A stretch of DNA of 50,290 nt from Escherichia phage JLBYU07: the sequence record OK272485.1; one strand, written 5' to 3'. Within the stretch, counting starts at the first letter, position 1, and each line of letters opens with the position of its first letter. This document shows, one piece after another, positions 4,776 through 20,303 of this stretch. A program made the position numbers and the translations under genes. The notes under the pieces were generated by a model, which was not told the origin of the DNA, did not search any database, and saw nothing but the letters and a program-made list of their open reading frames with translations.

Positions 4776-5015
4776 ATGGAAAAAGAGAGAAGCGTTTTAC
4801 TTAATGAGGATGGCGAATTTCTTTTATATCGCGCTATGGTGTGCGACTGTATGGAAAAAAATTCGTTCGTTAAGCCATATATTGATTGCGATTTGTGGGA
4901 GTTTTCCGGCTGCCTGGATATGAGTTTTGAGGAAACTAGAAAACATCCTCTTGAAAAATGGCATGAAATAATTGCTAAAGACCTGCAAGAATTTTACGAT
5001 TCAGCGATCAAATAG
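4776..5015 (+). CDS. hypothetical Cys-rich protein
   Basis: 79 aa; GGAG RBS 8 nt upstream of ATG 4776; track ORF 4665 start lies inside dam; stop TAG in conserved box. Confidence 0.55.
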   Translation: MEKERSVLLNEDGEFLLYRAMVCDCMEKNSFVKPYIDCDLWEFSGCLDMSFEETRKHPLEKWHEIIAKDLQEFYDSAIK

Positions 5016-5031
5016 CACTTTTTGTTAAAAC
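5011..5031 (+). promoter_or_regulatory. conserved intergenic box AATAGCACTTTTTGTTAAAAC
   Basis: exact copy; TAG is stop of gene 4776-5015; followed by hairpin and ATAATT. Confidence 0.65.
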
Positions 5032-5087
5032 GCCCAGCCTAGTGTCGGGCATAATTATTTCAACGAAACAAACATGAGGAAATAAAA

Positions 5088-15025: not shown

Positions 15026-15084
15026 TTACTATCTCCTGAGCGGTTCGTTTCGATGTGTGTAATGTACCCGATCAGGTGGCCTGA

Positions 15085-15106
15085 GTTTTAACAAAAAGTG
15101 CTATTT
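15085..15106 (-). promoter_or_regulatory. conserved intergenic box copy (minus orientation)
   Basis: at head of leftward early operon, about 60 nt upstream of gene 14753-15025. Confidence 0.6.
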
Positions 15107-16183: not shown

Positions 16184-16452
16184 AAAAGGCATTAATCAGC
16201 GTTTTGGCGGCAATGGCATTCCTGACCGGATGCAAAGAAGATGGCGCGCATGTTGGCAATGTGCAGATGGCTAACCCTGGCGATGCCTACAGCGTAAGGG
16301 AGCTATTCACCGCTGACGGTTGCACCGTTTACCGATTCTATGACGATCGCACTGTTTACTTCACCAACTGCAAGGGCGCTACTAGCTGGGAAGTGTCGAA
16401 AAGCAATGGCAAAGGCACGAAGACAGAACATATGACCGTCGAAACAAAATAG
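16180..16452 (+). CDS. lipoprotein (candidate receptor-blocking superinfection-exclusion protein)
   Basis: 90 aa from ATG 16180; signal peptide plus lipobox LTGC; stop TAG in conserved box. Confidence 0.55.
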   Translation: MKKALISVLAAMAFLTGCKEDGAHVGNVQMANPGDAYSVRELFTADGCTVYRFYDDRTVYFTNCKGATSWEVSKSNGKGTKTEHMTVETK

Positions 16453-16468
16453 CACTTTTTGTTAAAAC
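16448..16468 (+). promoter_or_regulatory. conserved intergenic box AATAGCACTTTTTGTTAAAAC
   Basis: exact copy; TAG is stop of lipoprotein gene; ATAATA 23 nt after TTGTTA. Confidence 0.65.
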
Positions 16469-16469
16469 T

Positions 16470-16694
16470 CAAAAGCGATAACCAGGCATAATACACACAT
16501 AGACGGGCGGCAAGGATTGCTGCGGGAGAGGAGTAACGCAGGGGCTTGATCGAAGTGTCAGGATTCCCAACCGTGAGGCCAGAACTATCACACTAGCCAC
16601 CAGGCAGAACGCTAGATAGGTCACTGAGCTGAGGCTACCGACGAAGTGAAGCCCGTCACCAAAGATTAAACGGTTATTTATGTGAAAGGGGTTA
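16470..16694 (+). ncRNA. candidate structured non-coding RNA or long structured leader
   Basis: 225 nt with no ORF in any plus frame, GC-rich; long-range pairing GACGGGC (16502-16508) with GCCCGTC (16651-16657); internal hairpins CTGCG...CGCAG and CTAGC...GCTAG. Confidence 0.3.
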
Positions 16695-17786: not shown

Positions 17787-17862
17787 GTTTGTTCACTGCG
17801 GCGCACGTCGCCGCATGGATCGGATTGTTTGCCTACCTGTTTAGCTTTTATTGAGGTGAGAG

Positions 17863-18015
17863 ATGGCTACATGGATTTTGCTGATTCTTATGATTGATGG
17901 CGGCGTTGACCATATCGAAATGAATAGCCAGCAATCTTGCATTGAGGCACGAGAGCAGATCAAGAACAACAACAGGTTTTATGCGTACACTCGCACGCTA
18001 TGTATTAAGAAATAG
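17863..18015 (+). CDS. hypothetical small protein
   Basis: 50 aa, below track threshold; GAGGTGA RBS; stop TAG in conserved box. Confidence 0.45.
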   Translation: MATWILLILMIDGGVDHIEMNSQQSCIEAREQIKNNNRFYAYTRTLCIKK

Positions 18016-18031
18016 CACTTTTTGTTAAAAC
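18011..18031 (+). promoter_or_regulatory. conserved intergenic box AATAGCACTTTTTGTTAAAAC
   Basis: exact copy; TAG is stop of small gene 17863-18015. Confidence 0.65.
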
Positions 18032-18084
18032 TCAAATGTGGGGCCAGGTATAATGGCCTCACTTTCAACGAAGGAGATAAAACG

Positions 18085-18303
18085 ATGTACATTAAAAAGA
18101 AGATGAAATGCGTTTCCGTTAACTATGCTTGCTCTGGCATGTTCAAGCCTGGCGAAATCTATACGGCGCAAAAACTGAAAACATCAACCGGATCTTTTTA
18201 CGTGAGCAATAGTAAGGGACATCGCATGTTCCTGAACGGCGGCGAAGGCACTAAGGTTATGGCACACGCTATGGTAATGGCTGAATTTGAGGAAGTGAAA
18301 TAA
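18085..18303 (+). CDS. hypothetical protein
   Basis: 72 aa from ATG 18085 with AGGAG RBS. Confidence 0.5.
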   Translation: MYIKKKMKCVSVNYACSGMFKPGEIYTAQKLKTSTGSFYVSNSKGHRMFLNGGEGTKVMAHAMVMAEFEEVK

Positions 18304-18305
18304 TC

Positions 18306-18515
18306 ATGGATCAGAACAAAACAGCAAAATATAAATTCACTGACGACTACGGAGACACTATCGACGTTTATCAGCGTGGGAATCAGATCTTTATAGATGG
18401 CACTTTCGAATATGGCCGGATGCCAGACTTTCGGGGAATACTTTCGTCAGATAGCGCGCGACGCATGGCGAACGTGTTAAATGAACTGGCGGCAAAGATT
18501 GAGGCGATGCAATGA
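18306..18515 (+). CDS. hypothetical protein
   Basis: 69 aa; tightly spaced after upstream gene. Confidence 0.5.
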   Translation: MDQNKTAKYKFTDDYGDTIDVYQRGNQIFIDGTFEYGRMPDFRGILSSDSARRMANVLNELAAKIEAMQ

Positions 18516-18826
18516 AAAAATACACTTTCGAACTGTGGGGCAAGAAGTACGAATTAATCACCAGCAAGCCGATTGTTGTGTGCGATCTCGACGGCACACT
18601 ATCGGACGGCGCGCCTAGCTTCTTTGCTATCCATTCTATTGACGGCAAGGATATTGGGTACAACGTTATCCGTCGAGATGGAATATCAAAACTTAGTGAC
18701 CTGGTAGGCCATATTGTGTCAATCGGGAAATGCGCATGGCCCGATTCGCCACGAGAGCCGCGCCGCCGCGACATGGTAGATCCTGTTCTGCTTTACACCA
18801 TGGTAGTAGAAGGAGAAAATAAATGA
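18512..18826 (+). CDS. hypothetical protein with HAD-like DxDGT motif
   Basis: 104 aa; VVCDLDGTLSDG resembles HAD phosphatase motif I, other HAD motifs not evident. Confidence 0.4.
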   Translation: MKKYTFELWGKKYELITSKPIVVCDLDGTLSDGAPSFFAIHSIDGKDIGYNVIRRDGISKLSDLVGHIVSIGKCAWPDSPREPRRRDMVDPVLLYTMVVEGENK

Positions 18827-19008
18827 TTTGGTTACTTGCTTTTTTGGTTGTTTTTCTTTACATTTCAGGCTTGTTTACGTTCCGCGCGTTGGTGAAATAT
18901 TCTGACGCGACAGACAAAGACGATAAAATCGTTCTCGCTTTCTGGTTTGTTTGGGTGTGGTTAGCAATTTACGAGATCATCAGAGACAAACAGAAATTTG
19001 AGTGGTGA
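18823..19008 (+). CDS. small membrane protein (two predicted TMDs)
   Basis: 61 aa; hydrophobic helices WLLAFLVVFLYISGLF and LAFWFVWVWLAIY. Confidence 0.5.
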   Translation: MIWLLAFLVVFLYISGLFTFRALVKYSDATDKDDKIVLAFWFVWVWLAIYEIIRDKQKFEW

Positions 19009-19065
19009 TTCTTGCTATGGCGCATTCATGCAGTGCGCCATGTTGAGAAAACCTAAAGGGGGGAA

Positions 19066-19218
19066 ATGATGCGTAACTTTGAAAAAATCATTACCAAAAA
19101 GAAGCGTCGCGGGTACGATGAGCATGTGGAGCTTGTGAAAAAGCAACGCAAGAAGCGCAACGAAGACAAGAAGCGCGGGAAAAAATTTAATGCGATTTTT
19201 CGCTATGGAGATCATTAA
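19066..19218 (+). CDS. small highly basic protein
   Basis: 50 aa, below track threshold; GGGGGG RBS; Lys/Arg-rich (KKKRRG, KKQRKKRNEDKKRGKK); antisense track ORF 19015-19215 rejected. Confidence 0.45.
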   Translation: MMRNFEKIITKKKRRGYDEHVELVKKQRKKRNEDKKRGKKFNAIFRYGDH

Positions 19219-19220
19219 TC

Positions 19221-19811
19221 ATGAAACGAGACATTATCATCCTTAATGGGCCGCCAGGTTGCGGGAAGGACACTATTGCAGCTTACCTAACGGGCCATCG
19301 TTACCCTGCCGTCAAGGCGTCATTCAAACAGCCGATGTTCGATATTGCTTTTTCTATGCTGGGCGTGTACCGATACGATGAATTTATGGACCTGTACAAC
19401 GACCGAGAGCAAAAAGAAAAGCCTCAAGTTATCTTGGGCGGCAAGTCACCTCGACAATTCATGATCTGGATTAGCGAGGATGTAATGAAGCCAGTTTTTG
19501 GGGATCACTATTTCGGGCGTCGAATGGTTGAAGAGATTCACGAGATGTACCGAGATTTGGCGGTTGTGATCAGTGATGGCGGATTCCCCGAAGAAATAAA
19601 GCCGCTGGTTAAGGCAGGGCATGAAGTGCATATTTGCCGATTGCATCGCGACGGCTTCACGTTTGCTGGCGATTCGAGAGACTATATTGACCTGAGCGGT
19701 TATCACTATCGAATCCATCACTATGACTTCCAATTGCAGGACGGCAAGCCGGAACTGGCTGTAAACGAGATCGTCAATGCTGTCAAATGGAAACACACGC
19801 AGATTAAATAG
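19221..19811 (+). CDS. P-loop nucleotide/nucleoside kinase-like protein
   Basis: 196 aa; Walker A ILNGPPGCGKDT at N-terminus; stop TAG in variant box. Confidence 0.5.
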   Translation: MKRDIIILNGPPGCGKDTIAAYLTGHRYPAVKASFKQPMFDIAFSMLGVYRYDEFMDLYNDREQKEKPQVILGGKSPRQFMIWISEDVMKPVFGDHYFGRRMVEEIHEMYRDLAVVISDGGFPEEIKPLVKAGHEVHICRLHRDGFTFAGDSRDYIDLSGYHYRIHHYDFQLQDGKPELAVNEIVNAVKWKHTQIK

Positions 19812-19826
19812 CACGAATTGCTAAAC
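19807..19826 (+). promoter_or_regulatory. conserved intergenic box copy (variant AATAGCACGAATTGCTAAAC)
   Basis: TAG is stop of kinase gene; TATAAT 22 nt after TTGCTA. Confidence 0.55.
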
Positions 19827-19881
19827 GCGGGGCGCAATGCCTCGCTATAATGCAAACACCAATCAACGAGAGAAAATCACA

Positions 19882-20262
19882 ATGGTTAACATCAGAAAAA
19901 TCCGCGTCGGCACTAAATTCTTAGTTACTTATGCAATTCCAGATAGCGGAATGAAGAAGGGCCAGATTGTTAAGGTTGATAGCAAAAGATTCGGAATCCC
20001 TGGTGTCAATGGCTATCTAATCAATAGAGATCTTGGATTCGACGGCTTCGCTATCCGTGCGCTTGAGGGTATTGTTGCCACTCTTAAACGAATCACTAAT
20101 CATCGCGGCTGCCCAATCAAGACGATTAAAGCGCCAGTAAATTACGGCAAACTGGATAATCGTCGAATCCGCCGCCTGGCGCGTAACGCGTTAAAATTCC
20201 GTGGCGTAGGCGATGATTTCTACTATGGTTACAAGAGGATCGCGCGCAATGCTGGGAAATAA
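19882..20262 (+). CDS. hypothetical protein
   Basis: 126 aa from ATG 19882 (GAGAG RBS); track start overlaps TATAAT. Confidence 0.5.
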   Translation: MVNIRKIRVGTKFLVTYAIPDSGMKKGQIVKVDSKRFGIPGVNGYLINRDLGFDGFAIRALEGIVATLKRITNHRGCPIKTIKAPVNYGKLDNRRIRRLARNALKFRGVGDDFYYGYKRIARNAGK

Positions 20263-20303
20263 CAATAACGCAACGAATCCTAAGCCACCTTTTGATTTTC
20301 ATT

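What the first reader, a model, noticed from the sequence alone, without database searches (positions are those of the whole stretch)
18512..19811. HAD-like motif protein, membrane protein, basic peptide and P-loop kinase cluster
Seen in sequence: gene 18512-18826 has a DxDGT motif (CDLDGTL) typical of HAD phosphatases; 19221-19811 has an N-terminal Walker A (GPPGCGKDT) typical of nucleotide or polynucleotide kinases; between them lie a two-TMD membrane protein and a 50-aa highly basic protein. Inference: kinase plus phosphatase activities are reminiscent of polynucleotide kinase-phosphatase RNA repair (used against anticodon nucleases), but no RNA ligase motif (KxDG) was found, so dNMP kinase is an equally plausible reading.
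Basis: partly seen in the sequence, partly recalled or inferred. Interest (0 to 1): 0.4.

Follow-up and report, generated by a model that had tools for sequence, protein, structure and literature searches.

The report
Phosphatase gene remnant beside dNMP kinase
In this T1-like E. coli phage the "HAD-motif" gene is the in-frame scar of a ~1.1 kb deletion that destroyed a phosphatase gene, and the neighbouring P-loop protein is a T4/T5-type deoxynucleotide kinase, so this is an ordinary accessory-gene region and not an RNA-repair system.

Summary
The window is a Warwickvirus-like (Drexlerviridae) coliphage, 97-98% identical to phage tunus.

The 104-aa ORF (18512-18826) is a chimera. Residues 1-33 are the start of the 178/236-aa HAD_PNKP phosphatase of close relatives. 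Residues 34-104 are residues 17-87 of a separate 87-aa protein. About 1.1 kb between them is missing, and the junction lies at a short direct repeat (GACGG within TATCG(G)ACGG). Only HAD motif I survives, so the product cannot be a phosphatase. No other public sequence carries this junction.

The 196-aa P-loop protein is a remote homologue of phage dNMP kinases:
- PHROG 139, E 1e-50
- best fold match T4 Dnk (1DEK), TM 0.70
- profile match to T5 Dnk, E 8e-9
It matches T4 Pnkp only at the P-loop. The closest annotated relative has no RNA ligase.

PNKP-type RNA repair is not supported; the dNMP kinase reading is.

Two relatives carry independent lesions of the same HAD gene, a second in-frame deletion and a nonsense codon, so the gene is dispensable. 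Interest is low.

The parts
18010..18054 (+). Likely sigma-70-type promoter, about 460 bp upstream of the chimeric ORF. It consists of the conserved 27-mer AAATAGCACTTTTTGTTAAAACTCAAA followed by TATAAT. It is one of four copies of this element in the window.
   Evidence: There are 4 copies (5010+, 15106-, 16447+, 18010+) against 0 expected by chance, and each is followed about 18 nt later by a -10-like hexamer. Promoter function is inferred, not shown.
18306..18515 (+). Upstream 69-aa gene. Its stop codon overlaps the start of the chimeric ORF (ATGA).
   Evidence: It is homologous to MikeNSara CDS0077 and to phrog_14011, E 1.5e-8.
18512..18610 (+). 5' fragment (codons 1-33) of a HAD_PNKP phosphatase gene. 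It retains only HAD motif I (DLDGT, 18584-18598).
   Evidence: It is collinear with the starts of the intact 178-aa (MikeNSara), 236-aa (tonijn) and 236-aa (JLBYU26) genes. The intact proteins hit PF25109 at E 4e-21 and 2e-20 and align to T4 PseT residues 152-300 at E 3e-10.
18605..18609 (+). Deletion junction. It is a GACGG microhomology shared by the two parental genes, lying within the 10-of-11 tract TATCG(G)ACGG.
   Evidence: Base-level alignments. The junction 22-mer is absent from the phage, viral, metagenome and genome collections.
18611..18826 (+). 3' part (codons 17-87) of a conserved 87-aa gene of unknown function, fused in frame to the HAD fragment. Its stop codon overlaps the next gene's ATG (ATGA).
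   Evidence: 52 protein clusters of 86-98 aa cover only the C-terminal 70% of the chimera. The model of the intact 87-aa protein shows that the missing residues 3-12 form strand beta-1.
18823..19008 (+). Conserved 61-aa protein with two transmembrane segments; function unknown.
   Evidence: phrog_9755, E 1e-22; hydropathy profile; present in all relatives examined.
19009..19049 (+). Conserved intergenic RNA hairpin with no T-run after it. It may be a processing or stability element.
   Evidence: MFE -22 kcal/mol, z = -3.1, with 0 of 200 shuffles folding as well. It is invariant in 5 phages, so there is no covariation evidence.
19066..19218 (+). Conserved 50-aa highly basic protein (pI 10.5); function unknown.
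   Evidence: phrog_8176, E 7e-4. There is a sub-threshold resemblance to T7 gene 1.1 protein (PF08200, E 0.0027, 18.6 bits against a cut-off of 21).
19211..19215 (+). Site where some relatives (MikeNSara, tonijn, tunus, L004) carry an extra 63-aa gene. The window shares the gene-less arrangement with JLBYU26, so this is an ordinary presence/absence polymorphism.
19221..19811 (+). 196-aa P-loop kinase with an NMP-kinase fold. It is a remote homologue of the T4 gp1 and T5 Dnk deoxynucleoside monophosphate kinases. Walker A lies at 19248-19274.
   Evidence: phrog_139, E 1e-50. AF2 model with pLDDT 91.7. Foldseek top hit 1DEK, TM 0.70. hhalign to T5 Dnk at 95.8% probability, E 8e-9, and to T4 gp1 at E 7e-6. 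99.5% identical to the vB_Eco_Sip 'ATP-binding protein'.

Best explanation
The cluster is part of the block of small accessory genes upstream of the terminase genes in a Warwickvirus-like (Drexlerviridae, T1-type) coliphage.

Shown: ORF 18512-18826 is a deletion scar. An ancestor carried, in order, a stand-alone HAD_PNKP-type phosphatase gene (178-236 aa), one or two small genes, and an 87-aa gene. About 1.1 kb was then lost: 1,104 bp by offset against JLBYU26, 1,115 bp against MikeNSara, 729 bp against tonijn. The loss lies between two short direct repeats, TATCGGACGG in the phosphatase gene and TATCGACGG in the 87-aa gene. It fused codon 33 of the phosphatase to codon 17 of the 87-aa gene, in frame. 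It also kept the ATGA stop/start overlaps with the genes on both sides.

Inferred: the mechanism was short-homology (slippage or illegitimate) recombination. The in-frame outcome was tolerated because translation of the downstream genes stays coupled. The product keeps only the nucleophile motif DxDGT, lacks HAD motifs II-IV, and also lacks the first beta-strand of the 87-aa protein. It is most likely an inert relic.

Shown: the 196-aa P-loop protein is an NMP-kinase-fold enzyme whose closest characterised relatives are the T4 and T5 dNMP kinases.

Inferred: it phosphorylates dNMPs to dNDPs with ATP, feeding phage DNA synthesis. That T1 breaks down host DNA is my own recollection and was not checked here.

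The 61-aa two-TM protein and the 50-aa basic protein are conserved neighbours of unknown function. No RNA end-healing system is present.
For: Source genome: (97.9% identity to tunus over 93% of 25 kb).

Deletion mapping: searches give collinear blocks 17800-18609 and 18605-19210 against three relatives, with base-level junctions and both parental frames preserved.

The chimera is unique:
- No record of 50,697 phage genomes spans the junction.
- The exact protein is not on record.
- No protein among 5.8 billion clusters covers more than 70% of it. Hits split into 87-aa proteins and 167-179-aa HAD_PNKP proteins.
- The junction 22-mer is absent from three DNA collections.
- All relatives have the wild-type 5' end of the 87-aa gene at this site.

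Loss of phosphatase features:
- The chimera has no Pfam hit at E<=1.
- It shares only 10 residues with T4 PseT.
- The intact protein aligns over PseT 152-300, including the TGR, K and DD motif positions, and hits PF25109.
- The remainder of the HAD gene is nowhere else in the window.

Kinase.

No ligase is annotated in the closest relative.

Dispensability of the HAD gene: there is an independent in-frame deletion in L006 and a nonsense codon in L004/L005.
Against: - The kinase family does not reach Pfam's curated DNMK threshold (1 of 43 members, E 0.001). Sequence searches against PDB chains find only weak, sub-significant matches, not including T4 Dnk or Pnkp. Homology to T4/T5 Dnk is detectable only over the N-terminal ~70 residues. 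Substrate specificity is therefore inferred, not shown.
- HAD phosphatase and kinase genes are tightly linked across Drexlerviridae. They overlap in Klebsiella phage Sanco. The two may therefore cooperate in a way not explained here.
- I have no reads, so an assembly error or a minority variant cannot be formally excluded.
- Inertness of the chimeric protein is an inference from missing motifs and a missing strand.
Confidence: 0.85

Rival explanations
1. One reading: the HAD protein and the P-loop kinase together form a split polynucleotide kinase-phosphatase. It would heal broken tRNA/RNA ends (3'-phosphate removal, 5'-OH phosphorylation) to counter host anticodon nucleases.
For: - The ancestor of the 5' fragment is homologous to the phosphatase domain of T4 Pnkp.
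- HAD and P-loop genes are linked throughout Drexlerviridae and overlap in Webervirus Sanco.
- Many GenBank records label the HAD gene 'polynucleotide kinase'.
Against: - In this window the phosphatase is destroyed: motifs II-IV are absent.
- The kinase matches T4 Pnkp only over the 25-column P-loop.
- None of 43 family members hits AAA_33, the Pnkp kinase-domain family.
- T4 Pnkp is not among the top 50 fold matches, whereas T4 Dnk ranks first.
- The closest annotated relative has no RNA ligase to seal healed ends.
- The 'polynucleotide kinase' label on relatives is a misnomer, because those proteins have no P-loop domain.
Confidence: 0.03
2. The chimera is a functional protein. It either retains the activity of the 87-aa protein, with the HAD N-terminus substituting for the lost strand, or has gained a new function.
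For: - The fusion is in frame, keeps the native start context and both translational couplings, and shows no further decay. Its two halves are within the normal variation of the parental genes.
- 71 of 87 residues of the C-terminal parent are retained, including most invariant positions.
Against: - The lost residues 3-12 form a confidently predicted edge strand of the small sheet (block pLDDT 87). Residues 1-16 include 11 of the family's invariant columns.
- The lack of decay is equally expected for a recent deletion.
- The allele is found nowhere else.
Confidence: 0.1
3. The deletion is not biological. It is an assembly artefact, or a minority variant that the assembler happened to follow.
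For: - The allele is unique among all collections searched.
- I have no read data.
Against: - A 5-bp repeat is far too short to collapse an assembly.
- The junction has the classic signature of a real short-homology deletion: one repeat copy is retained.
- An independent deletion of the same type is present in an unrelated sample (L006; the product is on 4 contigs). This shows such events do occur in this region.
Confidence: 0.04

Closest known systems
Phosphatase domain of bacteriophage T4 polynucleotide kinase-phosphatase (PseT/Pnkp; Pfam PF25109 HAD_PNKP)
   Same: The intact gene of close relatives is homologous to T4 PseT residues 152-300: 29% identity, E 3e-10, with the DxDGT, (S/T)GR, K and DD positions aligned. 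It also passes the Pfam threshold. The window's ORF retains its first 33 codons, including DxDGT.
   Different: The relatives' protein is phosphatase-only (178-236 aa) and has no N-terminal P-loop kinase domain. T4 PseT, by contrast, has AAA_33 plus HAD_PNKP. In the window everything after residue 33 is replaced by another gene's sequence, so it is a gene fragment and not a family member.
Deoxynucleoside monophosphate kinases of phages T4 (gp1, PDB 1DEK, Pfam PF21448) and T5 (Dnk)
   Same: - GKDT-type Walker A.
- NMP-kinase fold, with T4 Dnk as the best structural match (TM 0.70).
- Sequence homology that extends past the P-loop into the SF-x-x-P...LG segment (T5: 95.8% probability, E 8e-9; T4: E 7e-6).
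- Same PHROG (139, E 1e-50).
   Different: - Shorter: 196 aa against 241 (T4) and 250 (T5).
- 15-18% identity to T4 Dnk in the structural alignment.
- Below Pfam's DNMK threshold.
- Homology is undetectable by sequence in the C-terminal half.
- No member of this T1-type subfamily came up as biochemically characterised in the literature I searched.
Short-direct-repeat (illegitimate / slippage) deletions, as classically described for E. coli lacI and phage genomes (own knowledge, not checked here)
   Same: The deletion end-points fall in short direct repeats: 5 bp exact within a 10-of-11 tract in the window, and a 10-of-12 tract in L006. One copy is retained at the junction.
   Different: Nothing unusual. 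The only notable point is that both independent deletions are in frame and preserve translational coupling. By chance that has a probability of about 1/9.

Membership tests
HAD phosphatase, HAD_PNKP type (PF25109) | Motif I, DxDG[TV], containing the nucleophile Asp | tested here: met
   D25-L-D27-G-T29 is present in the 104-aa ORF and aligns with T4 PseT D165-V-D167-G-T.
HAD phosphatase, HAD_PNKP type (PF25109) | Motif II (S/T of the (S/T)GR element), motif III (Lys) and motif IV (DD) | tested here: not met
   In the intact relatives these are T85-G-R, K124 and D150-D151, aligned to T4 PseT. In the window the sequence after residue 33 derives from the 87-aa gene. The missing part is not encoded elsewhere in the window.
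HAD phosphatase, HAD_PNKP type (PF25109) | Domain-length match to the family profile above the curated threshold | tested here: not met
   The chimera has 0 Pfam families at E<=1 and matches phrog_415 only over residues 7-34 (E 0.002). The intact relatives score 76 and 73.6 bits against a cut-off of 27.6.
Bifunctional / split polynucleotide kinase-phosphatase RNA-repair system (T4 Pnkp + Rnl type) | A 5'-OH polynucleotide kinase domain of the Pnkp type (Pfam AAA_33) | tested here: not met
   T4 PseT hits AAA_33 at E 5e-23. None of 43 members of the window kinase's family hits AAA_33 at E<=0.01. hhalign to PseT covers only the 25-column P-loop. Pnkp structures are not in the top 50 fold matches.
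Bifunctional / split polynucleotide kinase-phosphatase RNA-repair system (T4 Pnkp + Rnl type) | A functional 3'-phosphatase | tested here: not met
   The gene is truncated after codon 33.
Bifunctional / split polynucleotide kinase-phosphatase RNA-repair system (T4 Pnkp + Rnl type) | An RNA ligase partner in the genome | tested here: not met
   No ligase is among the 84 annotated features listed for the closest relative, tunus, which covers 50.0 of its 51.1 kb. This rests on annotation: I did not run profile scans on every ORF of the window.
Phage dNMP kinase (T4 gp1 / T5 Dnk; PHROG 139; Pfam PF21448 DNMK) | N-terminal Walker A of the G-x-x-x-x-GKD-T type | tested here: met
   GPPGCGKDT at residues 10-18. 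G15, K16, D17 and T18 are invariant in 43 homologues and align to T4 GVKRSGKDT and T5 GEAGSGKDT.
Phage dNMP kinase (T4 gp1 / T5 Dnk; PHROG 139; Pfam PF21448 DNMK) | NMP-kinase fold closest to T4 Dnk | tested here: met
Phage dNMP kinase (T4 gp1 / T5 Dnk; PHROG 139; Pfam PF21448 DNMK) | Sequence homology to characterised enzymes beyond the P-loop | tested here: met
   hhalign to T5 Dnk: 95.8% probability, E 7.8e-9, 66 columns. BLASTP to T5 Dnk: E 4e-6. hhalign to T4 gp1: 84% probability, E 7.3e-6, 73 columns. phrog_139: E 1.1e-50.
Phage dNMP kinase (T4 gp1 / T5 Dnk; PHROG 139; Pfam PF21448 DNMK) | Match to Pfam DNMK above the gathering score | tested here: not met
   The window protein has no hit at E<=1. 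Only 1 of 43 homologues hits, at E 0.0011. T4 gp1 itself scores 357.9 bits. The protein is therefore a remote relative, outside Pfam's current family boundary.
Phage dNMP kinase (T4 gp1 / T5 Dnk; PHROG 139; Pfam PF21448 DNMK) | ATP-dependent phosphorylation of dNMPs to dNDPs | not testable with these tools
   This needs an enzyme assay.

The most novel reading that the evidence does not exclude
Loss of the HAD_PNKP phosphatase gene is selected rather than neutral. Three independent lesions occur among near-identical Warwickvirus genomes: this window's in-frame deletion, the L006 in-frame deletion that also removes two thirds of the dNMP kinase, and the Ser62 stop codon in L004/L005. The reason could be that the phosphatase, or the whole phosphatase-to-kinase block, is a liability on some hosts, for instance as a trigger sensed by a defence system. 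It could also be costly during propagation on laboratory E. coli. The in-frame character of both deletions would then reflect selection to keep downstream genes translationally coupled.
Probability: 0.1. Interest if true: 0.45.

Novelty: already known. Interest (0 to 1): 0.12.

Why it matters
The value is mainly corrective.

1. A DxDGT motif plus a Walker A within 1 kb looked like a kinase-phosphatase repair module. Comparison with relatives shows that one partner is a gene scar and the other a nucleotide kinase.
2. The widespread GenBank label 'polynucleotide kinase' or '3'-phosphatase, 5'-polynucleotide kinase' on the T1-like gene is misleading. The protein is phosphatase-only.
3. This genome, L006 and L004/L005 are natural knock-outs. 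They show that the HAD phosphatase, and in L006 also the dNMP kinase and the three small genes between them, are dispensable for phage viability. That gives ready-made material for asking what these conserved accessory genes do.

Tried and rejected
- **PDB sequence searches.** Searches with the kinase alone and with its family profile gave only weak matches (best E 0.069 and 0.005), mostly over the Walker A region. T4 Dnk and T4 Pnkp were not among them.
- **Curated family scans.** Pfam and NCBIfam gave nothing above threshold for the kinase.
- **The 87-aa parent protein.** The model is moderately confident (pLDDT 78), but no fold match in the PDB is significant (best E 0.24, TM below 0.33). 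Pfam finds nothing. Its function remains unknown.
- **Literature searches**. These found only a genomic remark that 'polynucleotide kinase' and dNMP kinase genes in Drexlerviridae may extend the replication module by enhancing nucleotide supply (PMC13164509). I found no biochemistry on either T1-type protein.
- **Promoter/terminator scan of 16.5-21 kb.** There was no enrichment over shuffles. The only convincing promoter-like site is the repeated 27-mer element.
- **Phosphomevalonate-kinase reading of the P-loop protein.** This label is used in some Klebsiella phage records, and silkworm PMK 7xnd is a fold hit at TM 0.59. I rejected it because animal-type PMK simply shares the NMP-kinase fold, and the sequence-level homology is to T4/T5 Dnk.
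- **IMG/VR scan for the junction.** It is weak as a negative, because only 2 contigs there carry the wild-type flank. The strong negatives are.
Full report
**What the window is.** Megablast of 17800-20300 and of 1-25000 against 50,697 phage genomes shows a T1-like E. coli siphophage of the genus Warwickvirus (Drexlerviridae, Tempevirinae). It is 97.9% identical to phage tunus over 93% of the first 25 kb. Other close relatives are MikeNSara, tonijn, JLBYU26, SECphi27 and FritzSarasin. The finding lies in the long run of small + strand genes upstream of the terminase genes.

**Observation check.** All four ORFs exist as described.
- The 104-aa ORF carries CDLDGTL.
- The 196-aa ORF carries GPPGCGKDT.
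- The 61-aa ORF has two strongly hydrophobic segments, residues 1-24 and 35-53.
- The 50-aa ORF has 19 K+R and a pI of 10.5.

**The 104-aa ORF is a deletion scar.** In relatives the same 2.5 kb stretch occupies 3.4-3.8 kb. Alignment with three annotated relatives shows two collinear blocks, 17800-18609 and 18605-19210, that abut inside the ORF. Between them the window lacks 1,115 bp relative to MikeNSara, 729 bp relative to tonijn, and about 1,104 bp relative to JLBYU26.

The left block ends in codon 33 of the gene that relatives annotate as 'polynucleotide kinase' or 'kinase-phosphatase' (178 or 236 aa). The right block begins in codon 15-17 of a separate 87-aa hypothetical gene. Both are in the same frame. 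The product is therefore HAD residues 1-33 followed by residues 17-87 of the 87-aa protein: 33 + 71 = 104.

The junction is GACGG. With JLBYU26-type alleles the parental sequences are CTATCGGACGG|TTCGCA and TTATCGACGG|CGCGCC. That is a 5-bp exact repeat inside a 10-of-11 tract, with one copy retained. This is the signature of a short-direct-repeat deletion.

What was lost is HAD residues 34 to the end, one or two whole small genes (99 aa, plus a 63-aa gene in MikeNSara), and the first 16 codons of the 87-aa gene. The fusion keeps the ATGA stop/start overlaps with the upstream 69-aa gene and the downstream 61-aa gene.

**The allele is private.**
- None of the 70 phage records that match the ORF spans the junction.
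- The exact protein is not in the 15-billion-protein collection.
- Among 60 homologues, none covers more than 70% of it. They fall into two disjoint classes, 86-98-aa proteins matching the C-terminal part and 167-179-aa HAD_PNKP proteins matching the N-terminal part.
- The junction 22-mer is absent from the viral, metagenome and genome collections.
- Every relative examined has the wild-type ATGGCTAACAAGATCGA... start of the 87-aa gene at this site.

**What the ancestor gene was, and what remains.** The intact proteins pass Pfam's HAD_PNKP model (PF25109, E 4e-21 and 2e-20). They align with T4 PseT residues 152-300 at E 3e-10, with DxDGT, (S/T)GR, Lys and DD in register. They have no P-loop domain, whereas T4 PseT has AAA_33 plus HAD_PNKP. 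The common label 'polynucleotide kinase' is therefore a misnomer for a phosphatase-only protein. Homologues of this protein occur in 2,464 phage records.

The window's chimera has no Pfam hit at E<=1. It shares just ten residues with PseT. The rest of the HAD gene is nowhere else in the window. With motifs II-IV gone it cannot be a HAD phosphatase.

The C-terminal parent has no known family. A moderately confident model (pLDDT 78) shows a four-stranded sheet with one helix, and the chimera lacks strand beta-1, residues 3-12. No significant fold relative was found. I infer that the chimera is an inert relic. Retained or new function is a minor rival.

**The kinase.** The 196-aa protein is 99.5% identical to an annotated 'ATP-binding protein' of phage vB_Eco_Sip. 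Its family occurs in 1,452 phage records of many types, where it is often annotated dNMP kinase and once sits beside a dUTPase.

Evidence for the assignment:
- It scores E 1.1e-50 against PHROG 139, deoxynucleoside monophosphate kinase.
- A 43-sequence alignment shows invariant GKDT, SF-K, R78/F80/S85/E86, GGF-x-x-E and DSR-x-Y motifs.
- The AlphaFold model is confident (pLDDT 91.7, pTM 0.84).
- Foldseek against the PDB ranks T4 deoxynucleotide monophosphate kinase first (1DEK: E 6.8e-7, TM 0.70, rmsd 4.3). Adenylate kinases follow at TM 0.35-0.55. T4 Pnkp is not in the top 50.
- The family profile aligns with T5 Dnk at 95.8% probability (E 7.8e-9, 66 columns) and with T4 gp1 at E 7.3e-6 (73 columns). 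Both alignments extend beyond the P-loop.
- The alignment to T4 PseT covers only the 25-column P-loop, and no family member hits AAA_33.

Caveats:
- The family falls below Pfam's DNMK threshold.
- PDB sequence searches are uninformative.
- Only the N-terminal third shows sequence homology.

The protein is therefore best described as a remote homologue of T4/T5 dNMP kinases. Its substrate range is inferred, not shown.

**RNA repair.** The phosphatase is broken, the kinase is of the nucleotide type, and the closest annotated relative has no ligase.

One point in favour of a functional link between the two gene families remains. They are neighbours throughout Drexlerviridae, and in Klebsiella phage Sanco the kinase gene (42% identical to the window's) overlaps the stop codon of the HAD gene. 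A recent genomic paper suggests that both extend the replication module by enhancing nucleotide supply (PMC13164509). That fits a nucleotide-pool role better than end-healing, but it is untested.

**Recurrent loss.** The protein search turned up two further lesions of the same HAD gene.
- P0180 (L006) is MKKYTFELWGKKYELITSKPIV fused in frame to the last 66 residues of the dNMP kinase. This is a larger deletion, between AAGCCGATTGTT and AAGCCGCTGGTT. It removes the HAD gene, the 87-aa, 61-aa and 50-aa genes and two thirds of the kinase.
- L004/L005 carry a Ser62 TCA-to-TAA nonsense codon.

The whole block is therefore dispensable for viability. Whether loss is neutral or selected is open. This is the only mildly novel reading, and I give it about 0.1.

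**Verdict.** The PNKP reading is not supported, and the dNMP kinase reading is. The components are already-known kinds, annotated (partly mis-annotated) in dozens of near-identical genomes. Interest is low at 0.12. The value lies in correcting a motif-based inference and in flagging natural knock-outs.

Noticed in passing
L006:4001-4267 (Logan SRR20632248 contig; protein P0180): This is an independent in-frame deletion in a close relative. It fuses codon 22 of the HAD phosphatase gene to the last 66 codons of the dNMP kinase gene, at the 10-of-12 homology AAGCCGnTnGTT. It removes the HAD, 87-aa, 61-aa and 50-aa genes and two thirds of the kinase. The product was seen on 4 contigs.
   Followed up: yes
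L004:3001-3714 and L005:963-1676 (Logan ERR3986691, SRR4423028): The HAD phosphatase gene carries a Ser62 TCA->TAA nonsense codon, so it is called as 61-aa and 161-aa ORFs. The two loci are 100% identical over 4.1 kb, so this is one event seen in several samples.
   Followed up: yes
window 5010-5036 (+), 15080-15106 (-), 16447-16473 (+), 18010-18036 (+): The 27-mer AAATAGCACTTTTTGTTAAAACTCAAA occurs four times with at most 3 mismatches, against 0 expected by chance. Each copy is followed about 18 nt later by CATAAT, TACATT or TATAAT. This is probably a family of phage promoters with a conserved upstream element. The 18010 copy probably drives the transcription unit that contains the cluster.
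   Followed up: partly
window 19009-19049: A stable hairpin (-22 kcal/mol, z = -3.1) sits in the only sizeable intergenic gap of the cluster, between the 61-aa and 50-aa genes. It is invariant in five related phages and has no T-run after it. It may be an RNA processing or stability element. No covariation is available.
   Followed up: partly
window 19211-19215 vs L001:4039-4230: A 63-aa gene lies between the basic 50-aa gene and the kinase gene in MikeNSara, tonijn, tunus and L004. It is absent from the window and from JLBYU26, which share an identical junction. This is an ordinary presence/absence polymorphism.
   Followed up: yes
window 19066-19218: The 50-aa basic protein has a sub-threshold resemblance to the T7 gene 1.1 protein (PF08200, E 0.0027, 18.6 bits against a cut-off of 21). 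T7 gp1.1 is likewise a small basic early protein of unknown function (own knowledge).
   Followed up: no
GenBank records hit (e.g. MG065638.1 'Campylobacter phage A15a', 22,680 bp): About 20-39 records labelled Campylobacter phage, with host C. jejuni, match this E. coli T1-like phage DNA. Their kinase is 83% identical to the window's. The host label looks doubtful and may reflect contaminating coliphage contigs.
   Followed up: no
L009:1822-2888 (Klebsiella phage Sanco, Webervirus): The HAD phosphatase gene ('acid phosphatase') and the P-loop kinase gene (42% identical to the window's) are directly adjacent, with overlapping stop and start codons. In Warwickviruses three to five small genes lie between them. 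This linkage of the two families, seen here in two Drexlerviridae genera, is unexplained.
   Followed up: partly
L002:2417-3127 and L003:1412-2122 vs L001:2213-2749: The intact HAD phosphatase comes in two lengths. The 236-aa form (tonijn, JLBYU26) has an extra C-terminal extension of about 60 aa (SIKITKRARFVGSKD...DGDFVNA). The 178-aa form (MikeNSara) lacks it. The extension has no Pfam match.
   Followed up: no
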